Shown piece by piece: positions 43,806-59,345 of a stretch of DNA of 64,000 nucleotides (position 1 is its first letter; every line of letters starts with the position of its first letter). Below the pieces are notes generated by a model that made no database searches, was not told the origin of the DNA, and saw nothing but the letters and a program-made list of their open reading frames with translations. This DNA is from Patescibacteria group bacterium. GTDB taxonomy: Bacteria; Patescibacteriota; Microgenomatia; Levybacterales; GWA1-39-11. Location of the stretch: positions 17,841 through 81,840 of the forward strand of contig DASZRG010000051.1 of the NCBI GenBank assembly GCA_035549295.1, read 5' to 3'. Position numbers and translations under genes: made by a program.

Positions 43806-45110
43806 ATGGAGCCATTACATTTTGAGGAGCTATATCCAGAAACAACACGAAACGAGGAAATCAACAAGATAGTTGAGATCCTGAGGACGGGAAGATCTTG
43901 TCAGGTCATTGGCATTCCGGGATCTGGAAAAAGCAATGTTTTAAGGCTTCTTGCTTACAACAAAAAAATAAGACTTAAGCATCTTGGTGACGACCAGGAA
44001 ATTTTCCACTTCATCTACATGGATTTTTCGGAGATGCGCGGCAGGTCGCTTTTTGACATTATCAAATTCATCTTTATATCACTATCCTACTCTCTTGGCG
44101 AGCGCGGATTTACAAAGGAACAGGAAGCAGTTAACGCTGCGCTACGCGAATCGCTTGAGTTTTCAGACGAGCTAATTTTGTTTCAAGGCCTTAAGAAAAG
44201 CGTTGACTTTTTGGCAATTGAGCACAAGCTCTATCTTGTGTTTTTGTTCGACCGGTTTGAGGACTATGTGCCAAATATTGACGAGCGCTTTTTCCCAGAT
44301 CTCAAAATCCTGAGAAACCGCGTCAAATACAACTTCCTAGCAGTTTTTGCTGTCACTCGACCAATTGAAGACACAATCGAAGCTCCTCTTTTTGGTGATT
44401 TTTACGAATTTATAGTTGGAAATACGATATTTCTACCCATAAAAGATCCGGTCGGGCTCGATTTTCGCTTTTCATACATCGAGCAAATAACAAAAAGCAA
44501 AGGCTCACCCGAGGCGCGTGCTGAAATAGAAAAGCTAACAGGAGGACACGGAAAACTCGCCAAGCTATCCTACGAAACGTATTTGGCCGAGGAAAAGATC
44601 AAAAACCTTGAAGAATTTTTACTTTCAAAAAAACAAATAAGAGCGGCTCTTTTTGAAATCTGGGAATATTTGACCGCTGAGGAAAAGGCAGATATTGCTG
44701 GCGGCGCCCCAAATGATTTTTTGGAAAAAGTTGGGCTTACCAATTCAAATAAGCTTTCAGTTCCCCTTCTTGCATCGTACGTAAAAACCAGACCATCTAC
44801 GGTTGCGAGTCAAAAAATTACATACGATTCCGAACGAAACGAGATCAACAAAGGAGACGAAAATATAAGCGATAAATTGACTCCGTCTGAATTCAGACTA
44901 CTCCGATACCTGATCATAAATGTCGACCGCGTCGCAGAGAAAGACGAGATCATCCAGAATGTTTGGCAAGATACAAAAACACAACAAGGAGTAACCGACC
45001 AAGCTCTGGATCAAATAATATACAGGCTTAGAAAGAAGATTGAAGAAGACCCCAACAAGCCGGTCCACATTCAGACAGTGAAAGGGAGAGGGTATAAGTT
45101 CAGTAGCTAG
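43806..45110 (+). CDS. P-loop ATPase domain fused to C-terminal OmpR/PhoB-type winged-helix DNA-binding domain (putative transcriptional regulator)
   Basis: Walker A 'VIGIPGSGKSNVL' and Walker B 'LYLVFLFDRFED'. The C-terminus 'LTPSEFRLLRYLIINVDRVAEKDEIIQNVW…DQALDQIIYRLRKKIEEDPNKPVHIQTVKGRGYKFS' is a trans_reg_C wHTH. Confidence 0.6.
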   Translation: MEPLHFEELYPETTRNEEINKIVEILRTGRSCQVIGIPGSGKSNVLRLLAYNKKIRLKHLGDDQEIFHFIYMDFSEMRGRSLFDIIKFIFISLSYSLGERGFTKEQEAVNAALRESLEFSDELILFQGLKKSVDFLAIEHKLYLVFLFDRFEDYVPNIDERFFPDLKILRNRVKYNFLAVFAVTRPIEDTIEAPLFGDFYEFIVGNTIFLPIKDPVGLDFRFSYIEQITKSKGSPEARAEIEKLTGGHGKLAKLSYETYLAEEKIKNLEEFLLSKKQIRAALFEIWEYLTAEEKADIAGGAPNDFLEKVGLTNSNKLSVPLLASYVKTRPSTVASQKITYDSERNEINKGDENISDKLTPSEFRLLRYLIINVDRVAEKDEIIQNVWQDTKTQQGVTDQALDQIIYRLRKKIEEDPNKPVHIQTVKGRGYKFSS

Positions 45111-45256
45111 ACCGAAAAGTATCGGCGGCATCAAAAGCATCAAGGGAACGAAAACAACAAATTAACCACTTAACAAATTGACATCAGCCGCGAGATTATC
45201 TGTAGATATTCGCAGTAATTATATTTGTTTACCCTGCAACTTGTTGAAGGGTAGAA

Positions 45257-45272
45257 TATTCGCATAGCGTAT
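45257..45272 (+). promoter_or_regulatory. Conserved motif TATTCGCATAGCGTAT upstream of the first pilin operon
   Basis: 15 of 16 positions match TATTCGCGTAGCGTAT at 48689-48704, upstream of the second pilin gene. Confidence 0.5.
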
Positions 45273-45332
45273 GCTGCTGCGCAAGGCCGGCAACCTTGAC
45301 TTGGGGTGGATACTTGCCTAACATGAATTAAG

Positions 45333-46715
45333 GTGAGATTTTTCAAAATCGGTCGCTTTTTTCTTTGTGTTGCCTTAGCGTTGACTTTCGTCGCTCTACT
45401 CGCCCGCAATTCAGGCGCGGACGACACGCCAACTCCCGCTCCAAACGCAAATGGAGGACAAGGGGCAATTGGGTATACACTTAACGGCCAGGACCCGAAC
45501 ACCTTCTATGTTGATGGGAATAGTCCGACTGTTGACATAACATACTCGGGACTTGCACCAAACGACAACGTATACGTCTACCCTAAAACCAATCAAGCGA
45601 ATATTGCGTTTGACAGAAAAGCATACGCCGCAGGAACGGCTGATGCAAACGGCTCTGTAACCGTTACCACATGCGGCGATGGAGACAGCGCACTCAAAGG
45701 CTCTTTCATATCATCAAAAAAGACGTGCAAGACAGATGGTCACGACTATTTCCACGAAGGAAACATATATAGTCTAGGTCTTTATGATGATGCCGAAGGA
45801 CAAGCCCAGATAGAGGTCGCGTCTTTTTATGCTTATCATTCCTACCCTACTGTAAAAATTGAGGCGCAGCCACAGGGGACGCTATCAACAGTTAAAGTTA
45901 CAGTCGCGGGTCACAGACTTGGGGACAGCAATGAAAACAACTATCAACTAGTCTTGCAGGACGCAGGAAGCGCACCAGCGCTTGAAGACTCCGGTGGAGA
46001 AAAGTATCTAGCAGAACAGTGCCTTACGATAAAATCAGGTCCCCCAACCGTCAAGAGCGGTTCTCAAGCCGACTTTCAAAATGCCGATACCACAGGCGGC
46101 GTAAGTAAAACCTTCAACGCAGGCAGCAATTCGCCAGACAAATCGGCTGGATCAAGCACTGCCGGTATTTCAGACGGAGAATATCTCCTAAAAGTCAATG
46201 CACAAATACACGAGGGCGGAATTCTTGCTGGACGTTCTGACACATGTCAAGGAGGATTCACCTACCTATTTATACCTTTTACTCTACGCCAGGGTAAAAT
46301 TACGCTCGGAAAGGCAGAGTACGATCCGCACGGATCCGACTCCACGGATGTAGAAAAGCTTGGGGATTCATACGCAGCACCCTGCGCAAAGGTAACTAGC
46401 ATTCCCGGCACCTCCGGTGATCTTCAAACGTGTGCAGCAGTAAGAACCGCGATAGGCAATATGAGCGTAACACCCGAGGGGTTCGTCAAAAGTCTTTTTG
46501 AATTTATGCTGATGCTTGCCACTTTTGGGGGACTCATAATCATTATTTATTCAGGCTATATCATCATGATGTCGCGCGGCGACAAGGAAAAAATCGCAGC
46601 AGCTCGTGAGACATTGACGTCCGCCATAGTCGGGTTGTTGTTTATAGTTTTGTCGATTGTTATACTTGAAATTATAGGGGTCGATATACTTCGACTTCCA
46701 GGATTTAGCCGATAA
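45333..46715 (+). CDS. Secreted ~370-aa Gly/Thr/Ser-rich domain fused to a C-terminal VirB2/TrbC-like two-TM T4SS pilin domain
   Basis: GTG start and signal peptide 'MRFFKIGRFFLCVALALTFVALLA'. The C-terminus 'LATFGGLIIIIYSGYIIMMSRGDKEKIAAARETLTSAIVGLLFIVLSIVILEIIG' has the same TM–G/SxGD–K…AR–TM pattern as the three small pilin paralogs. Confidence 0.5.
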   Translation: MRFFKIGRFFLCVALALTFVALLARNSGADDTPTPAPNANGGQGAIGYTLNGQDPNTFYVDGNSPTVDITYSGLAPNDNVYVYPKTNQANIAFDRKAYAAGTADANGSVTVTTCGDGDSALKGSFISSKKTCKTDGHDYFHEGNIYSLGLYDDAEGQAQIEVASFYAYHSYPTVKIEAQPQGTLSTVKVTVAGHRLGDSNENNYQLVLQDAGSAPALEDSGGEKYLAEQCLTIKSGPPTVKSGSQADFQNADTTGGVSKTFNAGSNSPDKSAGSSTAGISDGEYLLKVNAQIHEGGILAGRSDTCQGGFTYLFIPFTLRQGKITLGKAEYDPHGSDSTDVEKLGDSYAAPCAKVTSIPGTSGDLQTCAAVRTAIGNMSVTPEGFVKSLFEFMLMLATFGGLIIIIYSGYIIMMSRGDKEKIAAARETLTSAIVGLLFIVLSIVILEIIGVDILRLPGFSR

Positions 46716-46716
46716 C

Positions 46717-47055
46717 ATGAAGGAGTTATTATCTCTCTCTATTCCCCAGGGAGCCGACAGCACCCCGGTCCAGATACAAACCCCCGCAGACATTCCGTCC
46801 GGAGTGTCACTCGGCGCACTTGTCACAACGCTTTTACAAGCCGCGATGGTTTTTGGAATACTTATGTCTCTTGGCTTTTTTGTATACGGCGGTCTTCATT
46901 GGGTACAGTCTCGCGGCGACAAAGAGTCACTTAACAAATCGAGGAGGATTTTGATATATGCAGTCTTTGGACTCATTGTGATGTCTCTTGCACTCGTTAT
47001 TGTAAACGTTATAACAAGCGCCCTAGGAGTACAGAATCTAATCTCAGGAAATTAA
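46717..47055 (+). CDS. VirB2/TrbC-like two-TM T4SS pilin-like protein
   Basis: '…MVFGILMSLGFFVYGGLHWVQSRGDKESLNKSRRILIYAVFGLIVMSLALVIVN…'. The ATG lies 2 nt after the upstream stop. Confidence 0.5.
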   Translation: MKELLSLSIPQGADSTPVQIQTPADIPSGVSLGALVTTLLQAAMVFGILMSLGFFVYGGLHWVQSRGDKESLNKSRRILIYAVFGLIVMSLALVIVNVITSALGVQNLISGN

Positions 47056-47057
47056 AA

Positions 47058-48506
47058 TTACTTTATAAAGACAACATCTGAGTTGTCATGATAAACAATT
47101 CGCCACCCGTCTTTCGTAAGAGTTTTTGCTAAATCAAAGCTTTTTTGATTTTTTATGAATAATGAGGCTATCAAGCCTGTGAGGTCCTGCGATTTTTTCT
47201 TGGGCTTAGGCAGCAAAACAAGGCGGACATTGAATTTATCAAAGATTTTTTTATAATTACTTTTTTCGGACATAAGCGCTTGATAATCATAGAAGGCAGA
47301 ATTGCTCTGCCCGCTTGGCGCGACAAATCTCCACGACGGCATTCGGCCATCAACAAAAACTTTTTTTTCTGGAACTTTCCAGTCCAAATATCCACCCCAG
47401 TTGTAAATCGAAAATAAGTTGCCGGAAACCTTCTCTTGCTTTAAAAAATCGATTACCTGATCCGTAGGATAATAGTTTTTGTTAACTACGCCCTCACCGA
47501 CAGAATAATAATAGATGCGGAAAATAAAACTCGCGAGAGAAATCGTCAATAAGGCGGAGAGCGCAAAATTAAGCCTACTCTTCTGCGCGGTTTTTCTAAG
47601 GCTTGAGTAAAAATTTTCGAAAAGCGCAGGAGCTACAAAAAGATTTATCAAAATAAAATATGGAACGTTTCTTACAGACGATACCGCGAGAAAAAAAAGG
47701 AAGACGAAAAAGACTTGTTCTAGCGCTAAGATCTTGCCTCGATACTTGTACATCAGGGGTGTTTCCACCGCGGCTAGCAGAATTAGTGGAAAATTTATGA
47801 AGAATACGGCCGGAAGCCACTCTGAGATACTGAACCTAAGAGAGGCATCTGTTGCTTGGGAGAGGATTTCGCTCCAGAGCCTTATTCCGTAGGGGTTTGT
47901 AAGCGTCGCAAGAACACTGGCAAAGAAAATTGCAACATCAGACAACAATATTTTTCTTTGAAAAATCCTAACACACAAAAATACCCCCAACAGGACAATC
48001 GGCAACCCGACGCTTCCATGAAGATTTGCCCAGAATAAAATTAGAATTGGTATAAGAAAACGCGTTTTTAAATAAACTACATCATCCAGAAGAGCTTTTA
48101 AAAACAGCGCAAGAAGAAACCATGAAACCACCTGCGTCCTAACCCCAGCAAATGTAAGCAGCGCGGCCGTTGACAACACAAGCAGAACAATATTGAATTT
48201 GCTTTTTGTCGGCGAAAAACAAACAAAAAGACTCGCCGTCGCAAGCGCAGCAAACAACGCTTCGAGAAGAATGGCTCCCTGCGAGAATAAAGCCGCCAGC
48301 AACAAGTTCAACCCCCATTCGTGATCGATAAACGGGAAAGACGGCATTGTGTATGAAAAAGGGTCAGTCGCGGGAATTCCACTCTTGAGAATAAGTTCGC
48401 CCATTCGCAGATGCCAACCAAAATCCGGATCAATATTTGTTGCAGATTTTGCGAAGAAGGCGAGAAAGACTATTGCAATCAAGGCGAGCCCTAGCTTTCG
48501 ATTCAT
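47058..48506 (-). CDS. Polytopic membrane protein with C-terminal soluble domain (possible GT-C/O-antigen-ligase-like glycosyltransferase), encoded antisense within the pilin cluster
   Basis: About 12 TM helices. The start is probably the internal Met (MNRKLGLALIAIV…), 15 codons inside the ORF-track start. No catalytic motif recognised. Confidence 0.4.
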   Translation of the reverse strand: MNRKLGLALIAIVFLAFFAKSATNIDPDFGWHLRMGELILKSGIPATDPFSYTMPSFPFIDHEWGLNLLLAALFSQGAILLEALFAALATASLFVCFSPTKSKFNIVLLVLSTAALLTFAGVRTQVVSWFLLALFLKALLDDVVYLKTRFLIPILILFWANLHGSVGLPIVLLGVFLCVRIFQRKILLSDVAIFFASVLATLTNPYGIRLWSEILSQATDASLRFSISEWLPAVFFINFPLILLAAVETPLMYKYRGKILALEQVFFVFLFFLAVSSVRNVPYFILINLFVAPALFENFYSSLRKTAQKSRLNFALSALLTISLASFIFRIYYYSVGEGVVNKNYYPTDQVIDFLKQEKVSGNLFSIYNWGGYLDWKVPEKKVFVDGRMPSWRFVAPSGQSNSAFYDYQALMSEKSNYKKIFDKFNVRLVLLPKPKKKSQDLTGLIASLFIKNQKSFDLAKTLTKDGWRIVYHDNSDVVFIK

Positions 48507-48575
48507 CACCTTGATATTGTAGCGCACGGAAGATTTAGACGCCACGAACATGGACTACACACTACCCTAATTTAC

Positions 48576-48601
48576 CCGAATTATCCGAATGGGTTCCGAA
48601 T
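48576..48601. repeat. Three direct CCGAAT repeats (CCGAATTATCCGAATGGGTTCCGAAT)
   Basis: Read directly. (A/C)CGAAT clusters also occur at 36311-36340, upstream of the VirB6-like gene, and ATTCG inverted copies at 48662-48695. Confidence 0.5.
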
Positions 48602-48688
48602 GATCATTATGATTAACACGCCTCGTGGGCTTATCTAAGGGTTATTAATCAAATCAAGCATTCGAGCATATTCGTTAACATTCGGGCG

Positions 48689-48704
48689 TATTCGCGTAGC
48701 GTAT
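48689..48704 (+). promoter_or_regulatory. Conserved motif TATTCGCGTAGCGTAT upstream of pilin gene 48841
   Basis: Second copy of the motif at 45257-45272. Confidence 0.5.
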
Positions 48705-48805: not shown

Positions 48806-48834
48806 TTGACAATCTTTTTAAAACATGCTGTAAT
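48806..48834 (+). promoter_or_regulatory. Strong sigma70-like promoter TTGACA-N17-TGTAAT, 6 nt upstream of ATG 48841 (leaderless-type)
   Basis: Read directly. The downstream ORF starts with a signal peptide. Confidence 0.5.
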
Positions 48835-48840
48835 TGTCTC

Positions 48841-49251
48841 ATGAGGAAGTTTTTATCACCGGCACTAGCCTCCGCCGCACTTCTCGCAACTGCCATTCCT
48901 GCTCTTGCTGATGACAGCGTGCTTAACGCCTCCGTTGGACAAGCTAACGGAACGATTCCAGCCAACACCTCGCTCGGCTCTATCATTACTTTTATCGTTG
49001 CGTTTATCATCATCTTTGCGATTCTTGCAGCTCTTATGTTCATCGTCATCGGAGCACTTCAATGGATCACGTCAGGAGGAGACAAACAGAGAGTCTCTGA
49101 TGCTCGAAATCACATTATCGCAGCCGTTATCGGTCTTATCGTTATCGCGCTCTCGTTTGTCATAATTAACGTTGTTATCACGGCTCTCGGTCTCGGATCG
49201 CTAACCAATCTTCATATCCAAACTCTTAACCAGATTAAAGGCGGCCAGTAG
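48841..49251 (+). CDS. VirB2/TrbC-like two-TM T4SS pilin-like protein with cleavable signal peptide
   Basis: Signal peptide 'MRKFLSPALASAALLATAIPALA', then '…IIFAILAALMFIVIGALQWITSGGDKQRVSDARNHIIAAVIGLIVIALSFVIIN…'. Confidence 0.5.
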   Translation: MRKFLSPALASAALLATAIPALADDSVLNASVGQANGTIPANTSLGSIITFIVAFIIIFAILAALMFIVIGALQWITSGGDKQRVSDARNHIIAAVIGLIVIALSFVIINVVITALGLGSLTNLHIQTLNQIKGGQ

Positions 49252-49410: not shown

Positions 49411-49466
49411 CGATACCCTTGATACTCTTGATGCCCTTGATACCCCTGACGGCTCTCGTGTATAAC
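49411..49466 (+). promoter_or_regulatory. Triple CTTGATAC repeat providing -35 (TTGATA, 49437-49442), then N18 and TATAAC -10 (49461-49466), 6 nt upstream of ATG 49473
   Basis: Read directly. The sequence is the reverse complement of the GTATCAAG tandem motif. Confidence 0.5.
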
Positions 49467-49472
49467 TAAACT

Positions 49473-49781
49473 ATGGCTACAATTCAAACAACAAGCCTTC
49501 AGGGCTGCTACAAGGATGGGGTCGCAACGCTCGCCTGTATACCGGTAGTTATTCAAAACGTAATAAATTTTTTAGTCATGTTCGCCGGAATTGTTTGCGT
49601 TTTTCTCATAGTCTATGCCGGAATTAGACTGGTTATGTCAGAGGGTGATCCGGAGAAAATCTCAACTGCCCGCAAAACTCTCATCTACGCTATCTTCGGG
49701 CTTGTGATCGTCATCATGTCCTTCTTCATCCTAGGACTCGTGTCGGGTCTCACGGGGGTGAGCCGTATCGCCCCCAAATAG
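49473..49781 (+). CDS. VirB2/TrbC-like two-TM T4SS pilin-like protein
   Basis: '…FLVMFAGIVCVFLIVYAGIRLVMSEGDPEKISTARKTLIYAIFGLVIVIMSFFILG…'. Confidence 0.5.
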   Translation: MATIQTTSLQGCYKDGVATLACIPVVIQNVINFLVMFAGIVCVFLIVYAGIRLVMSEGDPEKISTARKTLIYAIFGLVIVIMSFFILGLVSGLTGVSRIAPK

Positions 49782-49826
49782 CCTGTTTTCTTGACAACAA
49801 GCTCCACATTCCTATATTCTTTTGTT

Positions 49827-50147
49827 ATGGATCAAAATGCCGATTTTGCGGCTCGTCGCGAAGCACTACTTGAGGAATTCACCAAAATCATGGCTGAGGC
49901 CTTAAAAAGTGGGCATATATCACCTGAGGAATCTCGAGAAGCATCGAGATTTATTGTTTTAAATTTTAATGACACCAAAGATAAATACGAGCTAAAGGTC
50001 TGGACAGAAGAGCTTGCGCTAAGATACCCCATCTTCAAACAAGCCCTAGTCTCTTTTGAAGAAAATGACGCCGAAGAAGCAGATCAGCAACAAATCGCGG
50101 CAACCGAGGAAAAACTAAACGAACTTATTCACCAAACACAAAACTAA
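49827..50147 (+). CDS. Small acidic hypothetical protein
   Basis: The ORF-track TTG start (49791) coincides with a TTGACA -35. TTGACA-N16-TATATT-N8-ATG places the real start at ATG 49827 (MDQNADF…). The next gene starts 2 nt after the stop. Confidence 0.35.
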   Translation: MDQNADFAARREALLEEFTKIMAEALKSGHISPEESREASRFIVLNFNDTKDKYELKVWTEELALRYPIFKQALVSFEENDAEEADQQQIAATEEKLNELIHQTQN

Positions 50148-50148
50148 T

Positions 50149-52461: not shown

Positions 52462-53655
52462 ATGGAAAACCACCCTATTCCGCAGGACGTCACAGGCTTC
52501 AAGTTTAAGCTAATCGGAAGTGTTACGGTCAAACAATTCCTATATCTTCTAGGATTTGGCATACTCACAACGGTTATGTTTGTTCTTCATATAAATCTTT
52601 TTATAAAGGTACCATTCATGCTTATTTTCGCGAGTATTGGCGCTGCGCTCGCCTTTATACCGATTGAGGGAAGACCCATGGATGTTATGATTGCAAATTT
52701 TGCAAAAACTATTCCTGCAGAAAATAGATTTATTTATAAAAAGCGCGGCGTAAACCTTGCTTCATACGAATTTTTTAAGCCTCCTGTTGCAAAACCAACA
52801 GCGACAGCTACCACCACGCAGCAAAAACCAACGAACAACGAAGGCGCAGACGACAAACGAGCCGCGCTGATAAGCAGACTTAGAAATTCCTCTTTTAGGC
52901 CCGATGCTGATGAGGTCAAAAATCTCAATAACATACATGCTCTTTTTGAGGGTAAAAATGTACCCGTCCAAAAGCTTCCAGATCTTGCGCCCAGCGCAAC
53001 TACTGCACAAGGCGTCATGCCAAGCATTGCGACTATTGCGCCTGCTCCGACCGCCACACCTGCAGCGGGCGACCTAATGGATACCGCCAAAAAAGAAGAA
53101 CAGCTTACCGCACTTGACAAACAACTCGCGGAAGAGAAAAAGGCACAAGAGGAAGCGCGAGCCGAAGAACTAAAAGTTATAGCGACTCCACCGCCTCAAC
53201 CCAAAAAGGAAGAGCCAACAATTCGCACGGGGGACGAAAACGTCGGCAGGACAACTGTTCCTGTCGCGCCAAAAATAGAAGCGCCTACCGAACAGGCAAA
53301 CCCCACTCTTTCGGCTGGCTTTCCAACACTCCCTGACGTTCCAAATGTAATTCTTGGAATTGTTCGCGATGCCCGAGGACGAACATTACCAAACATTCTC
53401 GTTGAAGTAGTTGACGCCAACAATATACCCGTCCGAGCATTTAAAACAAACGCTCTCGGACAGTTTGCGTCGGCTACCCCACTTTCAAACGGCACATACC
53501 ACATCTCGCTTGAGGACGCGAGCAAAACTCATGAGTTTAAAATGATCGAAGTGAACCTAGCAGGCGATATTTTCCAGCCACTTGAGATCGTCTCAACCGA
53601 TGCTCGAGAGAAATTAAGACAAGAGCTTTTCGGAGGAAATATGGCAGCGGCCTAG
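52462..53655 (+). CDS. PrgI/VirB3-like membrane protein with Ala/Pro/Thr-rich linker and C-terminal beta-sandwich-like domain
   Basis: The N-terminus 'PIPQDVTGFKFKLIGSVTVKQFLYLLGFGILTTVMFV…' matches my recollection of the PrgI-family pattern (P-x-D…k-hG-x-T-x-RQ, then two TM helices). The rest is low-complexity with a ~100-aa C-terminal domain. Confidence 0.4.
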   Translation: MENHPIPQDVTGFKFKLIGSVTVKQFLYLLGFGILTTVMFVLHINLFIKVPFMLIFASIGAALAFIPIEGRPMDVMIANFAKTIPAENRFIYKKRGVNLASYEFFKPPVAKPTATATTTQQKPTNNEGADDKRAALISRLRNSSFRPDADEVKNLNNIHALFEGKNVPVQKLPDLAPSATTAQGVMPSIATIAPAPTATPAAGDLMDTAKKEEQLTALDKQLAEEKKAQEEARAEELKVIATPPPQPKKEEPTIRTGDENVGRTTVPVAPKIEAPTEQANPTLSAGFPTLPDVPNVILGIVRDARGRTLPNILVEVVDANNIPVRAFKTNALGQFASATPLSNGTYHISLEDASKTHEFKMIEVNLAGDIFQPLEIVSTDAREKLRQELFGGNMAAA

Positions 53656-53744
53656 CTGAGATTTACGTGGATTTTATAGCTGATTCCCGCAGATAAATCT
53701 CTTTCGTTGTTAATAAGTTTAATAATCAGCGATAATCTTTTTGT

Positions 53745-54392
53745 ATGCCCAAACAAAAAATTCATTCAACAACTCAAGATTTTACTGAAATCGTCGACAT
53801 TTCAGACGATTGTGTTTTTTTCAAAGGGGGCGCGACCTGTATGGTTGCCGAAGTTTCGTCTGTTAATTTTTTTCTCTTATCAACCGATGAACAAAACGCA
53901 AGAATTTATGGATACATGTCGATGCTTAATTCTCTGTCGTCATATATACAAATTTTTATAGTTTCTCGACATATAGATCTTGGGGCGTATATAAAACTTC
54001 TTGAGGATAAAATTTCAGGAATAAAAAATCCAAAAATCGCAGAGCAACTAACGCTCTACAGAGACTTTATCAAGGAAATCATAAAAGGAGAAGGGCTTCT
54101 TGATAAAAAAATTTATATCGTTATCCCCTTCTCACAGCTGGAGCTTGGTCCAACAGCGCTCGCTCAGGGAAATGCCTCGGGCGCAAGCCAGAAGAAAATC
54201 AGCACCGCAGATCGAATAAAAGCCGGGCTCATAAGCAAGCGAGACAACGTACTTGGGCAGGTCGAACGAATGGGACTTACTACACGCGCGCTTGGAACAG
54301 ATGAGCTTATAAAGCTCTACTATGAACTCTTTAATCAAGAGTTTGTGACGCTCGATTTCAACTCTAATGACGTAAAGAATGTGATTTTATAA
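53745..54392 (+). CDS. VirB4 N-terminal-domain-like protein (stand-alone paralog)
   Basis: 'TQDFTEIVDISDDCVFFKGGATCMVAEVSSVNFFLLSTDEQNARIYGYMSMLNSL…' parallels the N-terminal region of the adjacent VirB4-like ATPase ('VIDLISPSSVEVDFKNIRVGDKFFKTFFVVDYP…LSILIDYKE…') but has no ATPase domain. Confidence 0.4.
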   Translation: MPKQKIHSTTQDFTEIVDISDDCVFFKGGATCMVAEVSSVNFFLLSTDEQNARIYGYMSMLNSLSSYIQIFIVSRHIDLGAYIKLLEDKISGIKNPKIAEQLTLYRDFIKEIIKGEGLLDKKIYIVIPFSQLELGPTALAQGNASGASQKKISTADRIKAGLISKRDNVLGQVERMGLTTRALGTDELIKLYYELFNQEFVTLDFNSNDVKNVIL

Positions 54393-54394
54393 TT

Positions 54395-56650
54395 ATGTTG
54401 GGATTCGGAGAGAAGAAACAAACGACTGAAACAAATACTGCTCAACAGCCGATGGCTACTCCTGTGCAAAACGGGCCCACTGCTGCTGAAAGTGCACAGC
54501 CTCAAACTGCACAAACACAGACTACTACGCCAAAGGGTGTTCCGACAGCACAGGCCAAACCTGGACCAAGTCATGCCGCGACCGCGCTAAAAGACGGCTC
54601 TGTCTCGGTCATAGATCTTATTTCGCCTTCCTCAGTTGAGGTTGATTTCAAAAACATTCGAGTTGGAGATAAATTTTTTAAAACTTTTTTTGTAGTTGAC
54701 TATCCTCGCCAAGTCTCACCAAACTGGCTCTCCATTCTTATTGACTACAAAGAGACCATGAACATATCAATGTTCTGCTATCCCGTCGAGAGCAAGGATG
54801 TCCTGAGCAACCTAAGGCGCAAAATTTCAGAGATGGAGGCAACTCTCCAGTCGGACGCCGAACAAGGAGTAGAAAGTGACCCAAAGATAACCTCTTCACT
54901 CGAAGATGCCATCTCTCTTCGCGAAGAGCTAGCCCGTGGCCTTGAGCGCTTTTTCCAGTTTGGACTATACATAACTCTAGCCGCTGATACGCTCGAGAAA
55001 TTAGAGCTTAAAACCAAGGAGCTTCAGTCTCTTCTCGCGTCAAACCTGCTTCTTATAAAACCGTCTACCCTTCAGATGGAAGACGGGTTCAAGACAACTC
55101 TTCCGACAGGTATCGACAAGCTTTTTATTACTCGCAACATGGACACAACCTCTCTCGCATCAACTTTTCCATTTACGTCTTATGAGATTTCCCACCCAAA
55201 CGGAATACTTTATGGCGTAAATACCATCAACAATAGCCTTGCTATCGTTGACCGCTTCTCATTTGAGAACGCTAACGAAGTTGTATTTGGAAAATCTGGT
55301 GCAGGAAAATCTTTTTTGGTTAAGCTTGAGCTTCTGCGCCAAATGATGTTTGACGCGGAAATTCTAATAATAGATCCTGAAGATGAATACAAAAGTCTTT
55401 GCCATGCGCTTGATGGCGAATACATCAATTTCTCAAAATCATCCGAAGTTAAAATAAATCCTTTTGCACTCGTCGCAGAAGACATGACAGACGCGCAACT
55501 CGGAATAAAAATTCTTTCACTTCATGGGCTTTTAAAAACGATGCTCGGCGAAATGTCGCCAACTCAGGAGGCGATCTTGGACCGATCACTCGTGCTTTGC
55601 TACAAACAGAAAGGCATCACGCCAGACCCAGCGACCTACAAAAATGAGCCTCCCATTCTTGAAGATCTTTATAAAACACTCCTCAACATGGAGGAGGCCG
55701 AAGCAAAAGATCTATCATTCCGCCTTGAGAAATACGTAAAGGGAGGTTTCTCAGGACTCTTCAACCAACAAACCAACTATGACATCAAAAATCAGATGAC
55801 GGTCTTCTCTCTCCGCCAACTCGAAGACGCTCTTCGGCCCATCGCCATGCATGTGGTTCTTGATTTTATCTGGAACCGTGTCAGAACAAAACTCAAAAAA
55901 AGAATACTTGTCGTTGATGAGGCGTGGTATCTTATCCAACACCCTGACTCAGCGGCTTTTCTGCAAGGAATAGCAAAGCGTGCCAGAAAATATTTCCTAG
56001 GCGTAACTACTCTCACCCAAGACATTGAAGACTTTTTGTCAAACGACTATGGAAAATCGATTCTTTCAAACTCCTCGATACAAATATTGCTAAAACAAAA
56101 CTCGTCGGAAGTTGAGGCTCTTGCAAAGGCGCTATTTCTGTCAGAAGGTGAAAAACAATTTCTAGTCACGGCGCAGGTTGGAGAGGGATTACTTTTTGCT
56201 GGACAAAATCATATAACGGCGCAGTTTGTCGCATCCCAAAGCGAATACGAACTCATCACTTCAAAACCTCAAGACTTGATTCAAAAAGAAGACGATCCCA
56301 CACCTAGCATCCAGCAGCCGGAAAGTGTTTCCGCTCAAACAGAAGTTGCGCCCCCTTCGGTCGCGTCTACACCGACACCAACCAGTCAACCGCAATCCCC
56401 GGTCCCACCAATTCCGGACGCTGTTCCCCAAACGACACCAACTGCGCCCATCGCCCCACCTCCAACTCCAGCTATGGATTCACCCGACATAACGGTTGTG
56501 TCTCCTCCATCTCCTCCGGTTGCGCCTGTTGCCGCGACCATTGCCCAACCAGCGACGACTCCGCCCACAGCATCACCACCTACGGCAACTGCGCCGGCTA
56601 GCACGCAAGACTCGCCTGCCCCAACAGTCCCGGGCGTACCAAATGGCTAA
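54395..56650 (+). CDS. VirB4/TrbE/CagE-family T4SS ATPase with Pro/Thr/Ala/Gln-rich N- and C-terminal extensions
   Basis: Walker A 'VVFGKSGAGKSFLVK', Walker B 'ILVVDEAWYL' and '…GVTTLTQDIEDF…' match conserved VirB4 blocks. About 70 aa at the N-terminus and about 110 aa at the C-terminus are low-complexity (…PTPTSQPQSPVPPIPDAVPQTTPTAP…). Confidence 0.7.
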   Translation: MLGFGEKKQTTETNTAQQPMATPVQNGPTAAESAQPQTAQTQTTTPKGVPTAQAKPGPSHAATALKDGSVSVIDLISPSSVEVDFKNIRVGDKFFKTFFVVDYPRQVSPNWLSILIDYKETMNISMFCYPVESKDVLSNLRRKISEMEATLQSDAEQGVESDPKITSSLEDAISLREELARGLERFFQFGLYITLAADTLEKLELKTKELQSLLASNLLLIKPSTLQMEDGFKTTLPTGIDKLFITRNMDTTSLASTFPFTSYEISHPNGILYGVNTINNSLAIVDRFSFENANEVVFGKSGAGKSFLVKLELLRQMMFDAEILIIDPEDEYKSLCHALDGEYINFSKSSEVKINPFALVAEDMTDAQLGIKILSLHGLLKTMLGEMSPTQEAILDRSLVLCYKQKGITPDPATYKNEPPILEDLYKTLLNMEEAEAKDLSFRLEKYVKGGFSGLFNQQTNYDIKNQMTVFSLRQLEDALRPIAMHVVLDFIWNRVRTKLKKRILVVDEAWYLIQHPDSAAFLQGIAKRARKYFLGVTTLTQDIEDFLSNDYGKSILSNSSIQILLKQNSSEVEALAKALFLSEGEKQFLVTAQVGEGLLFAGQNHITAQFVASQSEYELITSKPQDLIQKEDDPTPSIQQPESVSAQTEVAPPSVASTPTPTSQPQSPVPPIPDAVPQTTPTAPIAPPPTPAMDSPDITVVSPPSPPVAPVAATIAQPATTPPTASPPTATAPASTQDSPAPTVPGVPNG

Positions 56651-58298
56651 TACGTACGTTGATGATATTGATAGCGACGAATTTCAACAGGGAGATCACT
56701 ACCCTGCTTTTCCGCAGTCTCCGAAAAACCTATCACCCGATGAAGACGAAAAGAAAAAGGGAATAAAGGATTACGCGCAACAAGGCCGTGACCTAATAAA
56801 TAAGGGGCAAAATGTTCGCGATTTTTTTTCGGCGGCTCATGCTCCTGCCGGCGCTGGAAATGCTGCTGCAGCAGGAGCCTCAACGGGTAGCGAAGTGACG
56901 GCCGGAGCAACTGGGGCTACCAGTGGCGTCGGCGCGACAGGGGCTGGTGGAGCACTAGCTGGAGAAACAGCCGCGGTAGGGACAGAGGCGGCGGCTTCCG
57001 CCGCAGCTCCAGTCGTAGCAGGAGCGATCGAAACCGGTGTTGGAGGAGTGGTCGCAAGTGCCGGAGGGTCTGCTGCCGCAACCGCACCAGTTACAATTAC
57101 AGTCACCGGAGCGAGCACGCCTCTCTGGCCAATCGCAGCAGCTTTCATTTTTCTTTTTATAGTCTTTGTAGTCGTGATCCTTCATGGGTCCTCTGTCGCT
57201 GGACTTCTTAGTAGTAGCAATAATTCGACAAGCGCTCCCACTGCGGGCTCCGCTGCCGGCAACACGGCCGCGTGCGTTGCGGCTGGTGGAAGCCTCGATT
57301 ATTCTGTGTCTATTCACGACACAAACGCCCTACCTCAAAATCCAGACAGTGTGAAAGCAGATGTTCTTAAAAGGTGGCCTGATGCAAAAATTAACAACTG
57401 GGATACAATAGTTAATCAATCGGTTGCAAACGGCTGGAACCCATCGCTTATTCTATCCATATGGATTGAAGAGTCAGGAGCACAGGCAGGCGTCGGATAT
57501 GCAGATGGCAACCCAGATGGATACACGGACGCTCTTGGCTGCGACCCGACCCACAACCAAACAACTGACATAAATAAAAGTCTTGCTTGTGTATTTAATA
57601 GTTTTAAAGACTATAACGGCTTCGAAGATCTAATGTGTGTCTATGGTGGCGACGGATTTCACCGCGCCCCATGTACATTCAAAGACCCACCACCCAAAGG
57701 AAACCCTGACTTTCCAATAAATATCAAGAAGTGGTATTCGGAAATCTCACCAGACACAATAAATTCAAATCCACAAGTTTGTGGACCAACAACATCCGGC
57801 GATTGGCCCACCACGGGACCCATCACACAAGGCCCAGAAGGATCAACTGACCATGCTGGTCTACTCGCAAAATATCAGTGGGAAGCGATCGATATAGGCG
57901 GCGGCACGAACACCAACATACCAGTGTATTCTTCGCACGACGGTACAGTTTCTGCGGTGCACGACTGCATACGCGATGGTGACTGCACGGCAGGCTACGA
58001 AGGGTTCGGTAATTCGGTTGAAGTCACAACCAATACAGACAGTGGGAGCTTCACAACCCTCTATGGACACCTAGCCGAAATTGACACCACTAACGGAGCG
58101 ACTGTCAAGGTCGGCGACAGGATCGGAATCATGGGGCAAACAGGACATGCACCTGGCGGAATCCATCTACATTTTCAGTTCACGGGAGCTCGAATGGAAC
58201 CACCATACATACCAAAAGCTGTAACACCGAGAAATTGCGATACGCCCACCGTTCCATGTGACCCAGTAAACATTGCGCCGTCAAAGCCTGGCGTATAG
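56643..58298 (+). CDS. Cell-wall hydrolase: Ala/Gly-rich N-terminal region, TM, lytic-transglycosylase-like segment and C-terminal M23 (LytM) peptidase domain (VirB1/PrgK-like functional analog)
   Basis: The start is reassigned to the ATG embedded in ATGGCTAA, overlapping the VirB4 stop. 'NPSLILSIWIEESGAQAG' is an SLT-like Glu-Ser context. The C-terminus 'TLYGHLAEIDTTNGATVKVGDRIGIMGQTGHAPGGIHLHFQF' matches the M23 HxxxD…HxH region. Confidence 0.55.
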   Translation: MANTYVDDIDSDEFQQGDHYPAFPQSPKNLSPDEDEKKKGIKDYAQQGRDLINKGQNVRDFFSAAHAPAGAGNAAAAGASTGSEVTAGATGATSGVGATGAGGALAGETAAVGTEAAASAAAPVVAGAIETGVGGVVASAGGSAAATAPVTITVTGASTPLWPIAAAFIFLFIVFVVVILHGSSVAGLLSSSNNSTSAPTAGSAAGNTAACVAAGGSLDYSVSIHDTNALPQNPDSVKADVLKRWPDAKINNWDTIVNQSVANGWNPSLILSIWIEESGAQAGVGYADGNPDGYTDALGCDPTHNQTTDINKSLACVFNSFKDYNGFEDLMCVYGGDGFHRAPCTFKDPPPKGNPDFPINIKKWYSEISPDTINSNPQVCGPTTSGDWPTTGPITQGPEGSTDHAGLLAKYQWEAIDIGGGTNTNIPVYSSHDGTVSAVHDCIRDGDCTAGYEGFGNSVEVTTNTDSGSFTTLYGHLAEIDTTNGATVKVGDRIGIMGQTGHAPGGIHLHFQFTGARMEPPYIPKAVTPRNCDTPTVPCDPVNIAPSKPGV

Positions 58299-58307
58299 AA
58301 TGTTTTT

Positions 58308-59345
58308 ATGGAAAATAACCCAAACAATAAAAAAATAAACCCAAAAGCACTATTGCTGATTGCTGTCTTTTTCATTATCATAGTTCTCATCGCTTTTGTC
58401 TCTCTTCTAATCCCGCAGAGAAACACAAGCCCAAATCAGCAAGCGTTATCTCCCACCCCCGCTCAACTCCCCGAAACAGTCGTTGTTCCAACCCCAGCAA
58501 TACAAACCCCAGCTAGCGTCGTTGTGAACAGACTAGGAGACGTAACCCTTCCAAAACAATTACCAAGCCTTCCAACCAAAATTAAGATTTACACTCTTTC
58601 ACAAACACAAATCTCACCCCTGAAAGCTTCCGACATTGCGCGCTCCCTGGGTTTTACAGGCGAGGGACAAACGAGCTCGACAACAAATGGGGATGCACTC
58701 ATCTTCCAACAGAGTGACGGGAATCTCGTCTTCTATCTAACCGGCGGAAGCATCCAGTATTATCCCGAGACTAACACTGCCTCCGCTGTCACCACAGAAC
58801 AACAAGCGCTTAAGATAGGAATTGAAGCGATAAAAAAATTCTCACCATACGTTGACACGCTCATACCCAACTATTCGTCTAAAACCTATTACGTAGGCAA
58901 CGAGGACTTGAGGCAAGTAGATAGTTTTGCGTCGTCAAATTTTATCGACCTGCCCTTCTCCGACTCGGTTGATAGTCGAATCATTTATTCTCAGTTCGGG
59001 GACAGCGCGTCGGCACACGTGTGGATCAGTAAATCAGGAGGCATTAATCGAATAACGGTGGCTGTTCCTCCACAACTGACAGGAACCGTCGACAAAGAAA
59101 CCCTTTCAGTAGGTGATGCAGAAAAACAGGTAGCGGCGGGTCGGGGAATAATCTCAAAATACGGTGATTCCGACAGCGGACCGCTTCCCACACCAGAAAA
59201 AACCTCTCTCAACGAAGTTGAGTTGGCCTATTTTCGAGACTCGAACAATAAGACCCTCTACCCTATCTTTGTTTTTTCGGGAACGTCGACAGCGGGCGGA
59301 TCCAACTACCCTATCACAGTATATCTACCCGCTCTAAAACCCTAG
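58308..59345 (+). CDS. Secreted or membrane-anchored hypothetical protein
   Basis: N-terminal TM 'ALLLIAVFFIIIVLIAFVSLLI', then a Pro/Thr/Ala-rich linker and a beta-rich domain. Confidence 0.4.
   Translation: MENNPNNKKINPKALLLIAVFFIIIVLIAFVSLLIPQRNTSPNQQALSPTPAQLPETVVVPTPAIQTPASVVVNRLGDVTLPKQLPSLPTKIKIYTLSQTQISPLKASDIARSLGFTGEGQTSSTTNGDALIFQQSDGNLVFYLTGGSIQYYPETNTASAVTTEQQALKIGIEAIKKFSPYVDTLIPNYSSKTYYVGNEDLRQVDSFASSNFIDLPFSDSVDSRIIYSQFGDSASAHVWISKSGGINRITVAVPPQLTGTVDKETLSVGDAEKQVAAGRGIISKYGDSDSGPLPTPEKTSLNEVELAYFRDSNNKTLYPIFVFSGTSTAGGSNYPITVYLPALKP

What the first reader, a model, noticed from the sequence alone, without database searches (positions are those of the whole stretch)
43806..59345. 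Compact Gram-positive-type T4SS/pilus-like locus with four VirB2-like pilin paralogs and its own regulator
The locus holds the genes below, packed tightly with 2-nt gaps or ATGGCTAA-type start/stop overlaps, i.e. translational coupling.
- A P-loop ATPase–OmpR-wHTH regulator.
- Four proteins sharing the two-TM pilin motif (TM–G/SxGD–K…AR–TM).
- A coiled-coil protein.
- A PrgI/VirB3-like protein.
- A VirB4 N-domain paralog.
- A VirB4 ATPase.
- An SLT-like+M23 peptidoglycan hydrolase.
- A secreted protein.
No relaxase is present and no integrase is seen nearby, so this looks like a chromosomally fixed apparatus rather than a conjugative element. DNA uptake and host/cell-surface attachment are both plausible functions. 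If the organism is CPR-like, this would be the kind of T4SS-derived machinery proposed to mediate episymbiosis. Four pilin paralogs, three of them behind their own strong promoters, is unusual and hints at antigenic or functional pilin diversification.
Basis: partly seen in the sequence, partly recalled or inferred. Interest (0 to 1): 0.72.

Follow-up and report, generated by a model that had tools for sequence, protein, structure and literature searches.

The report
Patescibacterial type IV secretion locus
This is the origin-proximal, relaxase-free type IV secretion and pilin gene cluster already described across Patescibacteria (here a Levybacteria genome), so the finding is real and correctly read but is a new member of a known kind.

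Summary
The genes listed are there. Profile searches confirm:
- a VirB4 ATPase of the Gram-positive CD1110 type;
- a separate TrsD-like VirB4 N-domain;
- PrgI/VirB3;
- four T4SS_pilin (PF18895) proteins;
- a lysozyme-like plus M23 wall hydrolase;
- a STAND-type ATPase fused to an OmpR-type DNA-binding domain.

No relaxase or integrase was found in the ORFs scanned across the 64 kb. The locus abuts dnaN/dnaA. The closest relatives that carry a lineage name are Candidatus Levybacteria (Microgenomatia).

This layout was published for Patescibacteria in 2023-2025, including pilin arrays of 2-11 genes, TrsD, the missing relaxase, a distant coupling protein and the position next to dnaA. Four pilins are therefore not unusual.

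What this work adds:
- The locus is wider than reported. A VirB6/TrbL-like membrane protein lies at 36461-38647 and a VirD4-like coupling protein at 22704-25124.
- A 497-aa membrane-protein gene on the opposite strand sits inside the pilin array.
- The four pilins keep a fixed order in 25 related loci, which favours division of labour over antigenic variation.
- The first pilin carries a fast-evolving ectodomain.
- The regulator sits upstream of the pilin array in all 20 related loci that have a four-pilin array and enough upstream DNA.
- The third pilin has a strongly conserved promoter.

The function (host interaction rather than conjugation) is inferred from work on Saccharibacteria.

The parts
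22704..25124 (+). VirD4-like type IV coupling protein, 806 aa, with two N-terminal TM segments and Walker A GKTGVGKS. It lies 30 kb from virB4 between tRNA-Ser and tRNA-Ile. Whether it belongs to the system is uncertain.
   Evidence: Pfam TrwB_AAD_bind 9e-6 and TraG-D_C 1e-5. NCBIfam TraD and CD1115 hits. TM segments. The literature says the coupling-protein gene is usually far from virB4 in Patescibacteria and was not essential in Southlakia.
36461..38647 (+). VirB6/TrbL-like polytopic membrane protein, 728 aa, about 9 hydrophobic segments.
   Evidence: No direct Pfam hit. It is 44% identical over 553 aa to P0042, which passes the Pfam TrbL gathering score (32 bits against 25.9) over the aligned region. 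Homologues lie near virB4 in 9 loci and directly upstream of the pilin array in L064.
38644..42564 (-). 1306-aa charged soluble protein of unknown function. In related loci its counterpart is transcribed divergently from the regulator.
   Evidence: No Pfam, NCBIfam or PDB sequence hit. Homologues occupy the same position in L001, L026, L030, L031 and L037.
43806..45110 (+). STAND-type P-loop NTPase fused to an OmpR/PhoB winged-helix DNA-binding domain, with no receiver domain. Candidate regulator of the locus.
45119..45146 (.). 9-nt repeats (GYATCAAG-like) just after the regulator gene. They are the inverted copy of the repeats at 49412-49447. Candidate operator, unproven.
   Evidence: Inverted repeat I1, 28 nt, 82% complementary. 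L015 has four GTATCAWG repeats in the same spacer.
45257..45272 (+). 16-mer TATTCGCATAGCGTAT, repeated at 48689-48704 upstream of the third pilin. Candidate operator, unproven.
   Evidence: Two exact matches to TATTCGCRTAGCGTAT in the window. None in the 80 related loci.
45296..45324 (+). Promoter-like site TTGACT-17-TAACAT, ending 8 nt before the GTG of pilin 1.
   Evidence: Promoter scan. Equivalent TTGACx-17-TAnnAT sites end 5-9 nt before the start in most related loci.
45333..46715 (+). Pilin 1: signal peptide, fast-evolving ectodomain of about 340 aa, and a C-terminal two-TM T4SS pilin domain.
   Evidence: PF18895 3e-4 at residues 388-446. NF045849 1.4e-4. Across loci the ectodomain is 23-37% identical (L050 excluded, E 0.17) and the pilin domain 44-73%. 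ORF frames of the first-pilin orthologues span 138-645 aa.
46717..47055 (+). Pilin 2, 112 aa, translationally coupled to pilin 1 by a 1-nt gap.
   Evidence: PF18895 9e-6. The gap is 1-3 nt in most related loci.
47058..48551 (-). 497-aa polytopic membrane protein on the opposite strand, inserted in the pilin array. Function unknown.
   Evidence: ORF. Nine hydrophobic segments. No Pfam, NCBIfam or PDB hit. It sits between the second and third pilin genes in L007 and L035 and just upstream of the third pilin in L004.
48689..48704 (+). Second copy of the 16-mer, TATTCGCGTAGCGTAT.
48806..48834 (+). Promoter-like site TTGACA-17-TGTAAT, ending 6 nt before the ATG of pilin 3.
   Evidence: Sequence. 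TTGAC[AT] is present in 21 of 22 related loci, 35-42 nt before the start in 20 of them, against 3.9% of random windows.
48841..49251 (+). Pilin 3, 136 aa, with a signal peptide. Candidate major pilin.
   Evidence: PF18895 6.8e-7, above the gathering score. NF045849 4.5e-6. It has the most conserved promoter of the array.
49412..49447 (+). Three to four tandem 9-nt repeats (GATRCYCTT) overlapping the -35 region of pilin 4.
   Evidence: Direct-repeat family D2. Sequence.
49473..49781 (+). Pilin 4, 102 aa.
   Evidence: PF18895 3.2e-10. NF045849 4e-9.
49791..50147 (+). Small acidic protein, 118 aa from a TTG start or 106 aa from the ATG at 49827. First gene of a two-gene cassette.
   Evidence: ORF. 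The pair occurs at the same place in L007, L013, L026 and L030 and inverted in L008, L017 and L029.
50149..52365 (+). 738-aa charged Ala/Lys/Asp/Glu-rich protein with a Gly/Ala-rich hydrophobic C-terminal tail. Function unknown.
   Evidence: No family hit. Weak heptad signal. Size and position are conserved at 22-30% identity.
52462..53655 (+). PrgI/VirB3-like protein with two TM segments, extended by a linker and a C-terminal beta-sandwich-like domain.
   Evidence: PrgI 28.9 bits against 27; CarboxypepD_reg 2.9e-5, below its cut-off. Found in 70 of 80 loci.
53745..54392 (+). TrsD-like protein: the VirB4 N-terminal domain encoded as a separate gene.
   Evidence: NF045975 model positions 105-223, E 2.6e-6; TrsD NF041427 1.3e-3. 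Found in 75 of 80 loci, next to virB4 in nearly all of them.
54395..56650 (+). VirB4 ATPase with a Pro/Thr/Ala-rich C-terminal tail.
   Evidence: NF045971 8e-122, covering model positions 183-749. P-loop_TraG 6e-34. PDB 4AG5 2e-47.
56643..58298 (+). Membrane-anchored peptidoglycan hydrolase with a lysozyme-like domain and an M23/LytM domain. Plays the VirB1/PrgK role.
58308..59345 (+). 345-aa protein with one N-terminal hydrophobic anchor. Function unknown.
   Evidence: No family hit. Orthologues in 7 loci.

Best explanation
**What it is**
The locus is the chromosomal type IV secretion system typical of Patescibacteria, in its Levybacteria (Microgenomatia) form.

**Shown here: the parts list**
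- VirB4 motor split into a TrsD-like N-domain and an ATPase core.
- PrgI/VirB3 membrane partner.
- Divergent VirB6/TrbL-like channel protein 5 kb upstream of the reported start.
- Lysozyme-like plus M23 wall hydrolase in the VirB1/PrgK role.
- Four VirB2-like two-TM pilins.
- Several lineage-specific envelope proteins.
- No relaxase or integrase was found.
- The cluster keeps its place beside dnaN/dnaA in the majority of the related genomes examined.

**Inferred: how it works**
1. VirB4 with PrgI and the VirB6-like protein forms the membrane platform.
2. The hydrolase opens the wall.
3. The platform extracts pilins from the membrane and polymerises them into a short pilus or conduit.
4. Pilin 3 has the strongest and most conserved promoter, so it is probably the major subunit.
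5. Pilins 1 and 2 are co-translated. Pilin 1, with its large fast-evolving ectodomain, is probably a minor or tip subunit that contacts the host cell.
6. The STAND-ATPase/winged-helix protein at the head of the array is the likely nucleotide-switched transcription factor of the locus.

**Taken from genetics in Saccharibacteria**
The machine serves the host-dependent lifestyle, through contact and delivery or uptake of molecules, and not conjugation.
For: **Identity of the parts**
- The VirB4 split is shown by non-overlapping coverage of the VirB4_plasma model: TrsD-like protein at model positions 105-223, VirB4 at 293-893.

**Taxon and vertical inheritance**
- All 80 VirB4-related loci are metagenome- or single-cell-derived genome records. 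Those that carry a lineage name are Levybacteria, Microgenomates or other Patescibacteria. Many others carry 'uncultured Gammaproteobacteria/Pseudomonadales' titles, which I take to be placeholder labels.
- 75 loci have the TrsD-like gene, 70 have PrgI, 66 have dnaN and 62 have dnaA.

**Pilins**
- 25 loci have four pilins in the same order.
- The pilin 1/2 gap is 1-3 nt in most loci.
- TTGAC[AT] lies upstream of pilin 3 in 21 of 22 loci, 35-42 nt before the start in 20, against 3.9% of random windows.
- The ectodomain of pilin 1 is 23-37% identical across loci, against 44-73% for its pilin domain.

**Regulator**
- An orthologue is present in 20 related loci, immediately upstream of the first pilin wherever the junction is visible.

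**Literature**
- PMC12102498 describes the same repertoire, the pilin arrays, the missing relaxase, the distant coupling protein and the dnaA/dnaN neighbourhood.
- PMC10633639 shows by Tn-seq that the T4SS and pilin genes are essential for epibiotic growth of Southlakia epibionticum.
- PMC12857230 summarises the pilus-as-conduit idea.
Against: - No experiment exists for Levybacteria. Neither a host nor a pilus has been seen.
- The pilins' link to canonical VirB2/TrbC rests on PF18895, weak CagC (0.041) and Mbov_0395 hits, topology and context. A 58-sequence pilin profile finds no solved VirB2/TraA structure.
- The pilin promoters have near-consensus -35 and -10 elements, which is not typical of activator-dependent promoters. 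The regulator's target is therefore unknown.
- The candidate operator repeats are not conserved in related loci.
- No VirB8-like component was identified.
- A coupling protein is present in the window, so DNA or protein substrate recruitment by a classical route cannot be excluded.
Confidence: 0.8

Rival explanations
1. It is a conjugative element, or the remnant of one, that still moves DNA. It would use the VirD4-like coupling protein at 22704-25124 and an unrecognised relaxase.
For: - The VirB4 family is that of conjugative transposon CTn2.
- A coupling protein with TrwB and TraG-D_C domains is in the same window, flanked by tRNA genes.
- Several large proteins without any family assignment could hide a new relaxase, for example the 1306-aa protein.
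Against: - No relaxase, integrase or recombinase family hit in the ORFs scanned.
- The cluster is syntenic with dnaN/dnaA in most of the 80 related loci (dnaN in 66, dnaA in 62), which indicates vertical descent.
- GC content of the locus (0.43-0.52) overlaps that of the dnaN/dnaA region (0.43-0.46).
- PMC12102498 finds a relaxase in only 103 Patescibacteria genomes.
Confidence: 0.07
2. It is a DNA-uptake machine, in the manner of ComB of Helicobacter or Ced of Sulfolobales, that feeds a nucleotide-auxotrophic cell.
For: - A ComF-family gene lies at 33593-34321, 2 kb from the VirB6-like gene.
- VirB4 gives weak hits to CedB and CedD.
- T4SS loci of the ABY1 class co-localise with comF, recG and radA.
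Against: - In Southlakia, deleting comEC abolished competence without loss of viability, while the T4SS stayed essential (PMC12857230).
- The ComF gene here is separated from the locus by unrelated genes (nrdR, DUF6941, DUF5667).
- The CedB and CedD scores are far below their cut-offs.
Confidence: 0.08
3. The pilin array is an antigenic or host-range variation device. The paralogs would be interchangeable alternative major subunits that turn over quickly.
For: - The pilins are only 21-35% identical to each other.
- The literature raises this idea by analogy with Bartonella and Anaplasma.
Against: - The same four positional orthologues, with characteristic lengths, leader types and coupling or promoter arrangement, recur in 25 loci whose VirB4 is 57-85% identical to the query.
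- No recent duplicates or silent cassettes exist in the window.
Confidence: 0.05

Closest known systems
Patescibacteria-clade T4SS (Quinonero-Coronel et al. 2025, PMC12102498; experimental example SEML1_0006-0019 of Southlakia epibionticum, Wang et al. 2023, PMC10633639)
   Same: - VirB4 related to MPF_FATA.
- An adjacent TrsD-like gene.
- PrgI/VirB3.
- A VirB6-like protein.
- A wall hydrolase carrying Peptidase_M23.
- An array of divergent PF18895 pilins.
- No relaxase.
- A coupling protein far from virB4.
- A position beside dnaA/dnaN.
   Different: - Four pilins in a fixed order, against six in Southlakia.
- The first pilin is fused to a large variable ectodomain.
- A conserved STAND-ATPase/OmpR-type regulator sits at the head of the array. 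I did not find it mentioned in the paper's text or in the supplements held.
- The VirB6-like gene is too divergent for direct Pfam detection. This fits the paper's remark that VirB6 is scarce in Microgenomatia.
- An invertible two-gene cassette (about 110 aa plus about 700 aa) lies between the pilins and prgI.
[quoted passage not shown]
   Same: - VirB4 passes the CD1110-family cut-off.
- PrgI and TrsD homologues are present.
- There is a hydrolase with a lysozyme-like domain plus a LytM domain, as in PrgK.
- No outer-membrane core components are present.
- All four pilins give sub-threshold hits to the Mycoplasma ICE 'pilin-like' family NF045849.
   Different: - No relaxase, no adjacent coupling protein, no PrgB-type adhesin and no recognisable VirB8/PrgL.
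- Pilins are present in an array.
- The locus is fixed in the chromosome next to the replication origin rather than carried on a mobile element.
VirB2 paralog arrays of Bartonella and Anaplasma effector-translocating T4SSs
   Same: Several divergent pilin genes lie side by side in a host-associated bacterium.
   Different: Those systems are diderm MPF_T systems, and their paralogs are thought to vary for immune evasion. Here the paralogs are stable positional orthologues in a monoderm-type system.
STAND-family transcription factors (MalT, AfsR/SARP-type)
   Same: A P-loop STAND/ORC-like NTPase module is coupled to a DNA-binding domain. The fold matches NB-ARC, CED-4 and MalT.
   Different: - The DNA-binding domain is a C-terminal OmpR/PhoB winged helix. 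MalT has a LuxR-type domain, and SARPs carry an N-terminal OmpR-like domain.
- There is no sensor repeat domain.
- The protein is only 434 aa long.

Membership tests
Patescibacteria-clade T4SS | VirB4 ATPase related to the MPF_FATA class | tested here: met
   NF045971 (CD1110 family) 407.9 bits against a cut-off of 325. PDB 4AG5 2e-47. No phylogenetic tree was built. The nearest relatives that carry a lineage name are Patescibacteria.
Patescibacteria-clade T4SS | TrsD-like gene (VirB4 N-domain homologue) next to virB4 | tested here: met
   NF045975 positions 105-223, E 2.6e-6; NF041427 TrsD 1.3e-3, both below their cut-offs. The gene lies 2 nt upstream of virB4 and is found in 75 of 80 loci.
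Patescibacteria-clade T4SS | PrgI/VirB3 homologue | tested here: met
   PF12666 28.9 bits against a gathering score of 27.
Patescibacteria-clade T4SS | VirB2-like pilins (PF18895) near virB4, often in arrays | tested here: met
   Four genes: two above the gathering score (29.7 and 40.4 against 26.6) and two just below (26.1 and 21.3).
Patescibacteria-clade T4SS | No relaxase associated with the cluster | tested here: met
   No relaxase family hit in the ORFs scanned across the 64 kb. The rest of the genome was not available.
Patescibacteria-clade T4SS | Chromosomal position near dnaA/dnaN (Microgenomatia, Paceibacteria) | tested here: met
   The stop codons of the last locus gene and of dnaN overlap at 59342-59345. 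dnaA lies at 60576-61916.
Patescibacteria-clade T4SS | VirB6-like polytopic protein | tested here: met
   Met indirectly. The protein at 36461-38647 has no direct hit, but it is 44% identical to P0042, which passes the TrbL gathering score.
Conjugative MPF_FATA T4SS / ICE | Relaxase and origin of transfer | tested here: not met
   No relaxase family was found in the window. oriT is not testable without a relaxase.
Conjugative MPF_FATA T4SS / ICE | Integrase or recombinase and element boundaries | tested here: not met
   No integrase family was found. The locus is syntenic with dnaN/dnaA in most of the related genomes examined.
Conjugative MPF_FATA T4SS / ICE | Coupling protein encoded with the system | tested here: inconclusive
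   A VirD4-like gene exists, but 30 kb upstream.
Conjugative MPF_FATA T4SS / ICE | VirB8-like (PrgL/TraM) component | tested here: inconclusive
   No sequence hit. The single-TM protein at 58308-59345 is a candidate whose fold could not be modelled with an alignment.
VirB2/TrbC pilin (PF04956) | Sequence match to canonical VirB2/TrbC or to a solved conjugative pilin | tested here: inconclusive
   Only PF18895, a weak T4SS_CagC hit (0.041) and NF045849 hits. A pilin profile gave no VirB2 or TraA hit in the PDB. The two-TM topology with a charged loop is present.
VirB1/PrgK-type T4SS wall hydrolase | Lysozyme-like/SLT glycosidase domain | tested here: inconclusive
VirB1/PrgK-type T4SS wall hydrolase | Peptidase domain (M23/LytM or CHAP) | tested here: met
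OmpR/PhoB two-component response regulator | N-terminal receiver domain with a phospho-acceptor Asp | tested here: not met
   The N-terminal 330 aa form a STAND/ORC-like P-loop NTPase. Only the C-terminal winged helix is OmpR-like.

The most novel reading that the evidence does not exclude
Levybacteria may have added two things to the shared patescibacterial T4SS. The first is a dedicated nucleotide-switched STAND/winged-helix regulator. The second is a pilin whose large, rapidly diverging ectodomain sits at the pilus tip and sets host specificity. If so, the locus would be a self-contained, regulated host-recognition and exchange organelle. Its tip-pilin sequence could then be used to predict host range from metagenomes.
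Probability: 0.25. Interest if true: 0.55.

Novelty: new member of a known kind. Interest (0 to 1): 0.3.

Why it matters
The T4SS with its pilin array is one of the few machines shown to be essential for the epibiotic life of cultivated Patescibacteria, and what it transports is still unknown. This window adds nothing categorically new.

It does give a clean Microgenomatia example with a fuller parts list:
- a divergent VirB6;
- a split VirB4;
- a hydrolase combining a lysozyme-like domain with an M23 domain.

It also offers three testable refinements:
- a fixed four-pilin division of labour;
- a variable adhesin-like pilin fusion;
- a conserved STAND/OmpR-type regulator.

These could guide work once a Microgenomatia co-culture exists.

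Tried and rejected
**Searches that found nothing**
- PDB sequence and profile searches gave nothing useful for:
  - the TrsD-like family;
  - the pilin family (where the only hit was a spurious viral glycoprotein TM segment);
  - the VirB6-like family;
  - the 1306-aa protein;
  - the 497-aa membrane protein.
- Pfam and NCBIfam gave nothing for the 738-aa, 345-aa, 118-aa, 497-aa and 1306-aa proteins.

**Candidate operators**
- The 16-mer TATTCGCRTAGCGTAT is shared by two pilin upstream regions but is absent from all 80 related loci.
- The 9-nt repeats recur only in L015.
- I therefore do not claim either as a regulator binding site.

**Promoter scan**
- The scan of the locus is not enriched over shuffles (31 sites against 24.4 +/- 5.0).
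- The promoter claim rests on cross-species conservation instead.

**False alarm**
- An apparent 2-kb ORF desert after dnaA turned out to be an ORF of about 800 aa that runs off the window end.

The TrsD-like, 345-aa and 738-aa proteins could therefore not be modelled with alignments.
- The afdb50 fold library was unavailable.

**Readings considered and rejected**
- An integrated conjugative element.
- A competence machine.
- An antigenic-variation array.
The reasons are given under the rival explanations.

Full report
**1. What is in the sequence**

The window is a low-GC (0.33-0.52) bacterial chromosome segment. It ends at dnaN (59342-60439, minus strand) and dnaA (60576-61916, minus strand).

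Profile searches give the following.
- 43806-45110: Trans_reg_C (6.9e-22) with weak AAA_16/nSTAND hits.
- T4SS_pilin PF18895 on four proteins: 3e-4, 9e-6, 7e-7 and 3e-10.
- 52462-53655: PrgI, 28.9 bits against a cut-off of 27, plus a sub-threshold CarboxypepD_reg-like C-terminal domain.
- 54395-56650: P-loop_TraG 6e-34, AAA_10, and weak CagE_TrbE_VirB.
- The following gene: Peptidase_M23 2e-13.

NCBIfam places the ATPase in the CD1110 VirB4 family above the curated cut-off (407.9 against 325 bits). Only model positions 183-749 are covered. The 215-aa protein just upstream matches the N-terminal part of another VirB4 model (NF045975 positions 105-223, E 2.6e-6) and TrsD (1.3e-3). VirB4 itself covers positions 293-893 of that same model. 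The two genes together therefore make up a split VirB4. The best solved relative is the VirB4 C-terminal domain 4AG5 (2e-47).

**2. Checks on the individual claims**

*Pilins.* The four pilin domains align with a shared TM-SxGGD(K/P)...(A/S)R-TM pattern. An HMM built from them finds no further copy in the window. They are 21-35% identical to each other.

*Gene spacing.* There are 1-nt gaps at 46715/46717 and 50147/50149, a 2-nt gap at 54392/54395, and an ATGGCTAA overlap of the hydrolase start (56643) with the virB4 stop. There are also spacers of 222, 289, 221, 96 and 89 nt.

*Coiled coil.* The 738-aa protein is charged and probably helical. It shows heptad-like periodicity in only 5% of windows.

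*Mobility genes.* No integrase or relaxase family matched any of the ORFs scanned across the 64 kb.

**3. Beyond the given coordinates**

Two T4SS-type genes lie outside the reported interval.
- The 806-aa protein at 22704-25124 is a VirD4-like coupling protein: TrwB_AAD_bind 9e-6, TraG-D_C 1e-5, two N-terminal TM segments.
- The 728-aa polytopic protein at 36461-38647 has no direct family hit. It is 44% identical over 553 residues to a homologue that passes the Pfam TrbL/VirB6 gathering score across the aligned region. In locus L064 its homologue sits directly upstream of the pilin array.

A 1306-aa charged protein (38644-42564, minus strand) has no family assignment. Its homologues are a conserved neighbour of the regulator in several relatives.

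**4. Relatives and synteny**

A scan of one genome per species with VirB4 returned 80 loci. Those that carry a lineage name are Candidatus Levybacteria/Levyibacteriota, Microgenomates or 'Patescibacteria group'. Many others carry 'uncultured Gammaproteobacteria' or 'uncultured Pseudomonadales' titles, which I read as placeholder labels rather than real assignments. The exact proteins of this window occur in NCBI metagenome-assembled genomes labelled Patescibacteria.

Across these loci:
- the TrsD-like gene is found in 75, PrgI in 70, dnaN in 66 and dnaA in 62;
- 25 loci have exactly four pilin genes in the same order: a long pilin with an N-terminal extension, then genes of about 112, 136 and 102 aa;
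- the regulator has an orthologue in 20 loci, lying immediately upstream of the first pilin wherever the junction falls within the locus.

Between the fourth pilin and prgI most Levybacteria loci carry a two-gene cassette of about 110 aa plus 650-740 aa. It is poorly conserved in sequence and inverted in some genomes.

The protein after virB4 is modular. Its lysozyme-like and M23 parts occur together or as separate genes.

The minus-strand 497-aa gene lies within or beside the pilin array only in the closest relatives (L004, L007, L035).

**5. Pilin expression signals**

- In most loci pilin 2 starts 1-3 nt after pilin 1.
- TTGAC[AT] lies upstream of pilin 3 in 21 of 22 loci, against 3.9% of random windows. 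In 20 of them the hexamer starts 35-42 nt before the start codon. It is usually followed by a TGnTCTAAT-type -10 box that ends 6-10 nt before the ATG.
- Pilin 1 shows an exact TTGAC[AT] in 9 of 21 loci, and in most loci a TTGACx-17-TAnnAT-like site is visible just before the start.
- Pilin 4 has only weaker matches, and in six loci it is coupled to pilin 3.
- The short distance from the -10 box to the start codon suggests very short or absent leaders. This is an inference.

The window has its own repeats in the pilin spacers: a 16-mer present twice, and 9-nt repeats present in both orientations. They are not conserved in other genomes, except for similar 9-nt repeats in L015. I treat them as candidates only.

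The ectodomain of pilin 1 is 23-37% identical across loci, while its pilin domain is 44-73% identical.

**6. What it is and how it probably works**

The parts, their order, the missing relaxase, the distant coupling protein and the dnaA/dnaN neighbourhood match the Patescibacteria T4SS described by Quinonero-Coronel et al. 2025 (PMC12102498). That study reports:
- TrsD next to virB4 in 1,664 cases;
- PF18895-type pilins near virB4 in 1,135 assemblies;
- 441 arrays of 2-11 pilin genes, mainly in Microgenomatia and Saccharimonadia;
- VirB1 homologues with added Peptidase_M23;
- few recognisable VirB6 or VirB8 in Microgenomatia.

In Southlakia epibionticum the corresponding cluster (SEML1_0006-0019) and its pilins are essential for growth on the host. 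The authors could find no coupling protein or relaxase in that cluster (PMC10633639). A 2025 review proposes the pilus as a conduit for signals or nutrients (PMC12857230).

I therefore take the locus to be a membrane platform that assembles a short pilus or conduit used in host interaction. The platform would consist of the split VirB4, PrgI and the VirB6-like protein, helped by the wall hydrolase. Pilin 3 is the likely major subunit. The co-translated pilins 1 and 2 are likely minor subunits, with the variable ectodomain of pilin 1 as the likely contact surface.

The parts list and synteny are shown here. Assembly, pilus formation, the regulator's targets and the substrate are inferred.

**7. 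Rivals**

- *A still-mobile conjugative element.* This is unlikely given the vertical synteny and the absence of mobility genes.
- *A DNA-uptake role.* A ComF-family gene nearby hints at this. The Southlakia comEC result argues against it.
- *Antigenic variation.* The stable positional orthology of the four pilins argues against it.

**8. Novelty**

This is a new member of a known kind. I did not find the following in the papers read:
- the conserved STAND/OmpR-type regulator;
- the fixed four-pilin order with an ectodomain-bearing first pilin;
- the sub-threshold similarity of all four pilins to the 'pilin-like' protein family of Mycoplasma ICEs (NF045849, E 4e-9 to 3e-3).

The last point suggests that pilin-like genes may not be foreign to the MPF_FATA lineage. 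These are modest refinements that still need testing.

Noticed in passing
window 22704-25124, with tRNAs at 22034-22123 and 25347-25420: A VirD4-like coupling-protein gene sits alone between tRNA-Ser and tRNA-Ile. It is preceded by a 145-aa ORF with no family hit, and no integrase is nearby.
   Followed up: partly
window 33593-34321 (-): ComF-family (ComFC/GntX-like) competence gene, TIGR00201 2.6e-24. It lies 2 kb upstream of the VirB6-like gene.
   Followed up: no
window 45333-46715, 46717-47055, 48841-49251, 49473-49781: All four pilin domains give sub-threshold hits to NCBIfam NF045849, the 'Mbov_0395 family pilin-like conjugal transfer protein' of Mycoplasma ICEs. The TrsD-like protein matches the neighbouring Mbov_0397 VirB4 model. 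This hints that pilin-like genes exist in Mollicutes MPF_FATA systems.
   Followed up: partly
window 61946-61979: A 34-nt non-coding element upstream of dnaA is 81-100% identical in 15 related loci. It contains an exact DnaA box at 61957-61965. Another exact box lies at 60514-60522 between dnaN and dnaA.
   Followed up: partly
window 62039-64000 (+): An ORF of about 800 aa runs off the window end. It is 54-59% identical to a five-TM protein encoded beside dnaA in the closest related loci (L002, L004-L008, L010, L035). It first looked like an ORF-free stretch because ORFs that run off the end are not listed.
   Followed up: yes
window 19950-20648 (+): An ORF with a LAGLIDADG-like homing-endonuclease domain lies next to tRNA-Ser (19777-19865).
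   Followed up: no
window 43749-43805, 45296-45332, 48806-48840, 49437-49472, 53707-53744: Several genes have a -10-like hexamer ending only 5-9 nt before the start codon and no obvious Shine-Dalgarno sequence. This suggests leaderless or very short-leader mRNAs.
   Followed up: partly
L008, L017, L029 (for example L017 5728-8035): The two-gene cassette between the pilin array and prgI (about 110 aa plus about 650-1000 aa) lies on the opposite strand in these genomes. It is absent in L037 and L064.
   Followed up: partly
window 56270-56650 and 56643-57180: The C-terminal 125 residues of VirB4 are Pro/Thr/Ala-rich low complexity, and the N-terminal part of the hydrolase is Ala/Gly-rich. This accounts for the local GC peak of 0.52.
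   Followed up: no
window 31398-31758 and 30039-30497: tmRNA (124.7 bits) lies about 0.9 kb downstream of smpB, with a 288-aa ORF between them.
   Followed up: no
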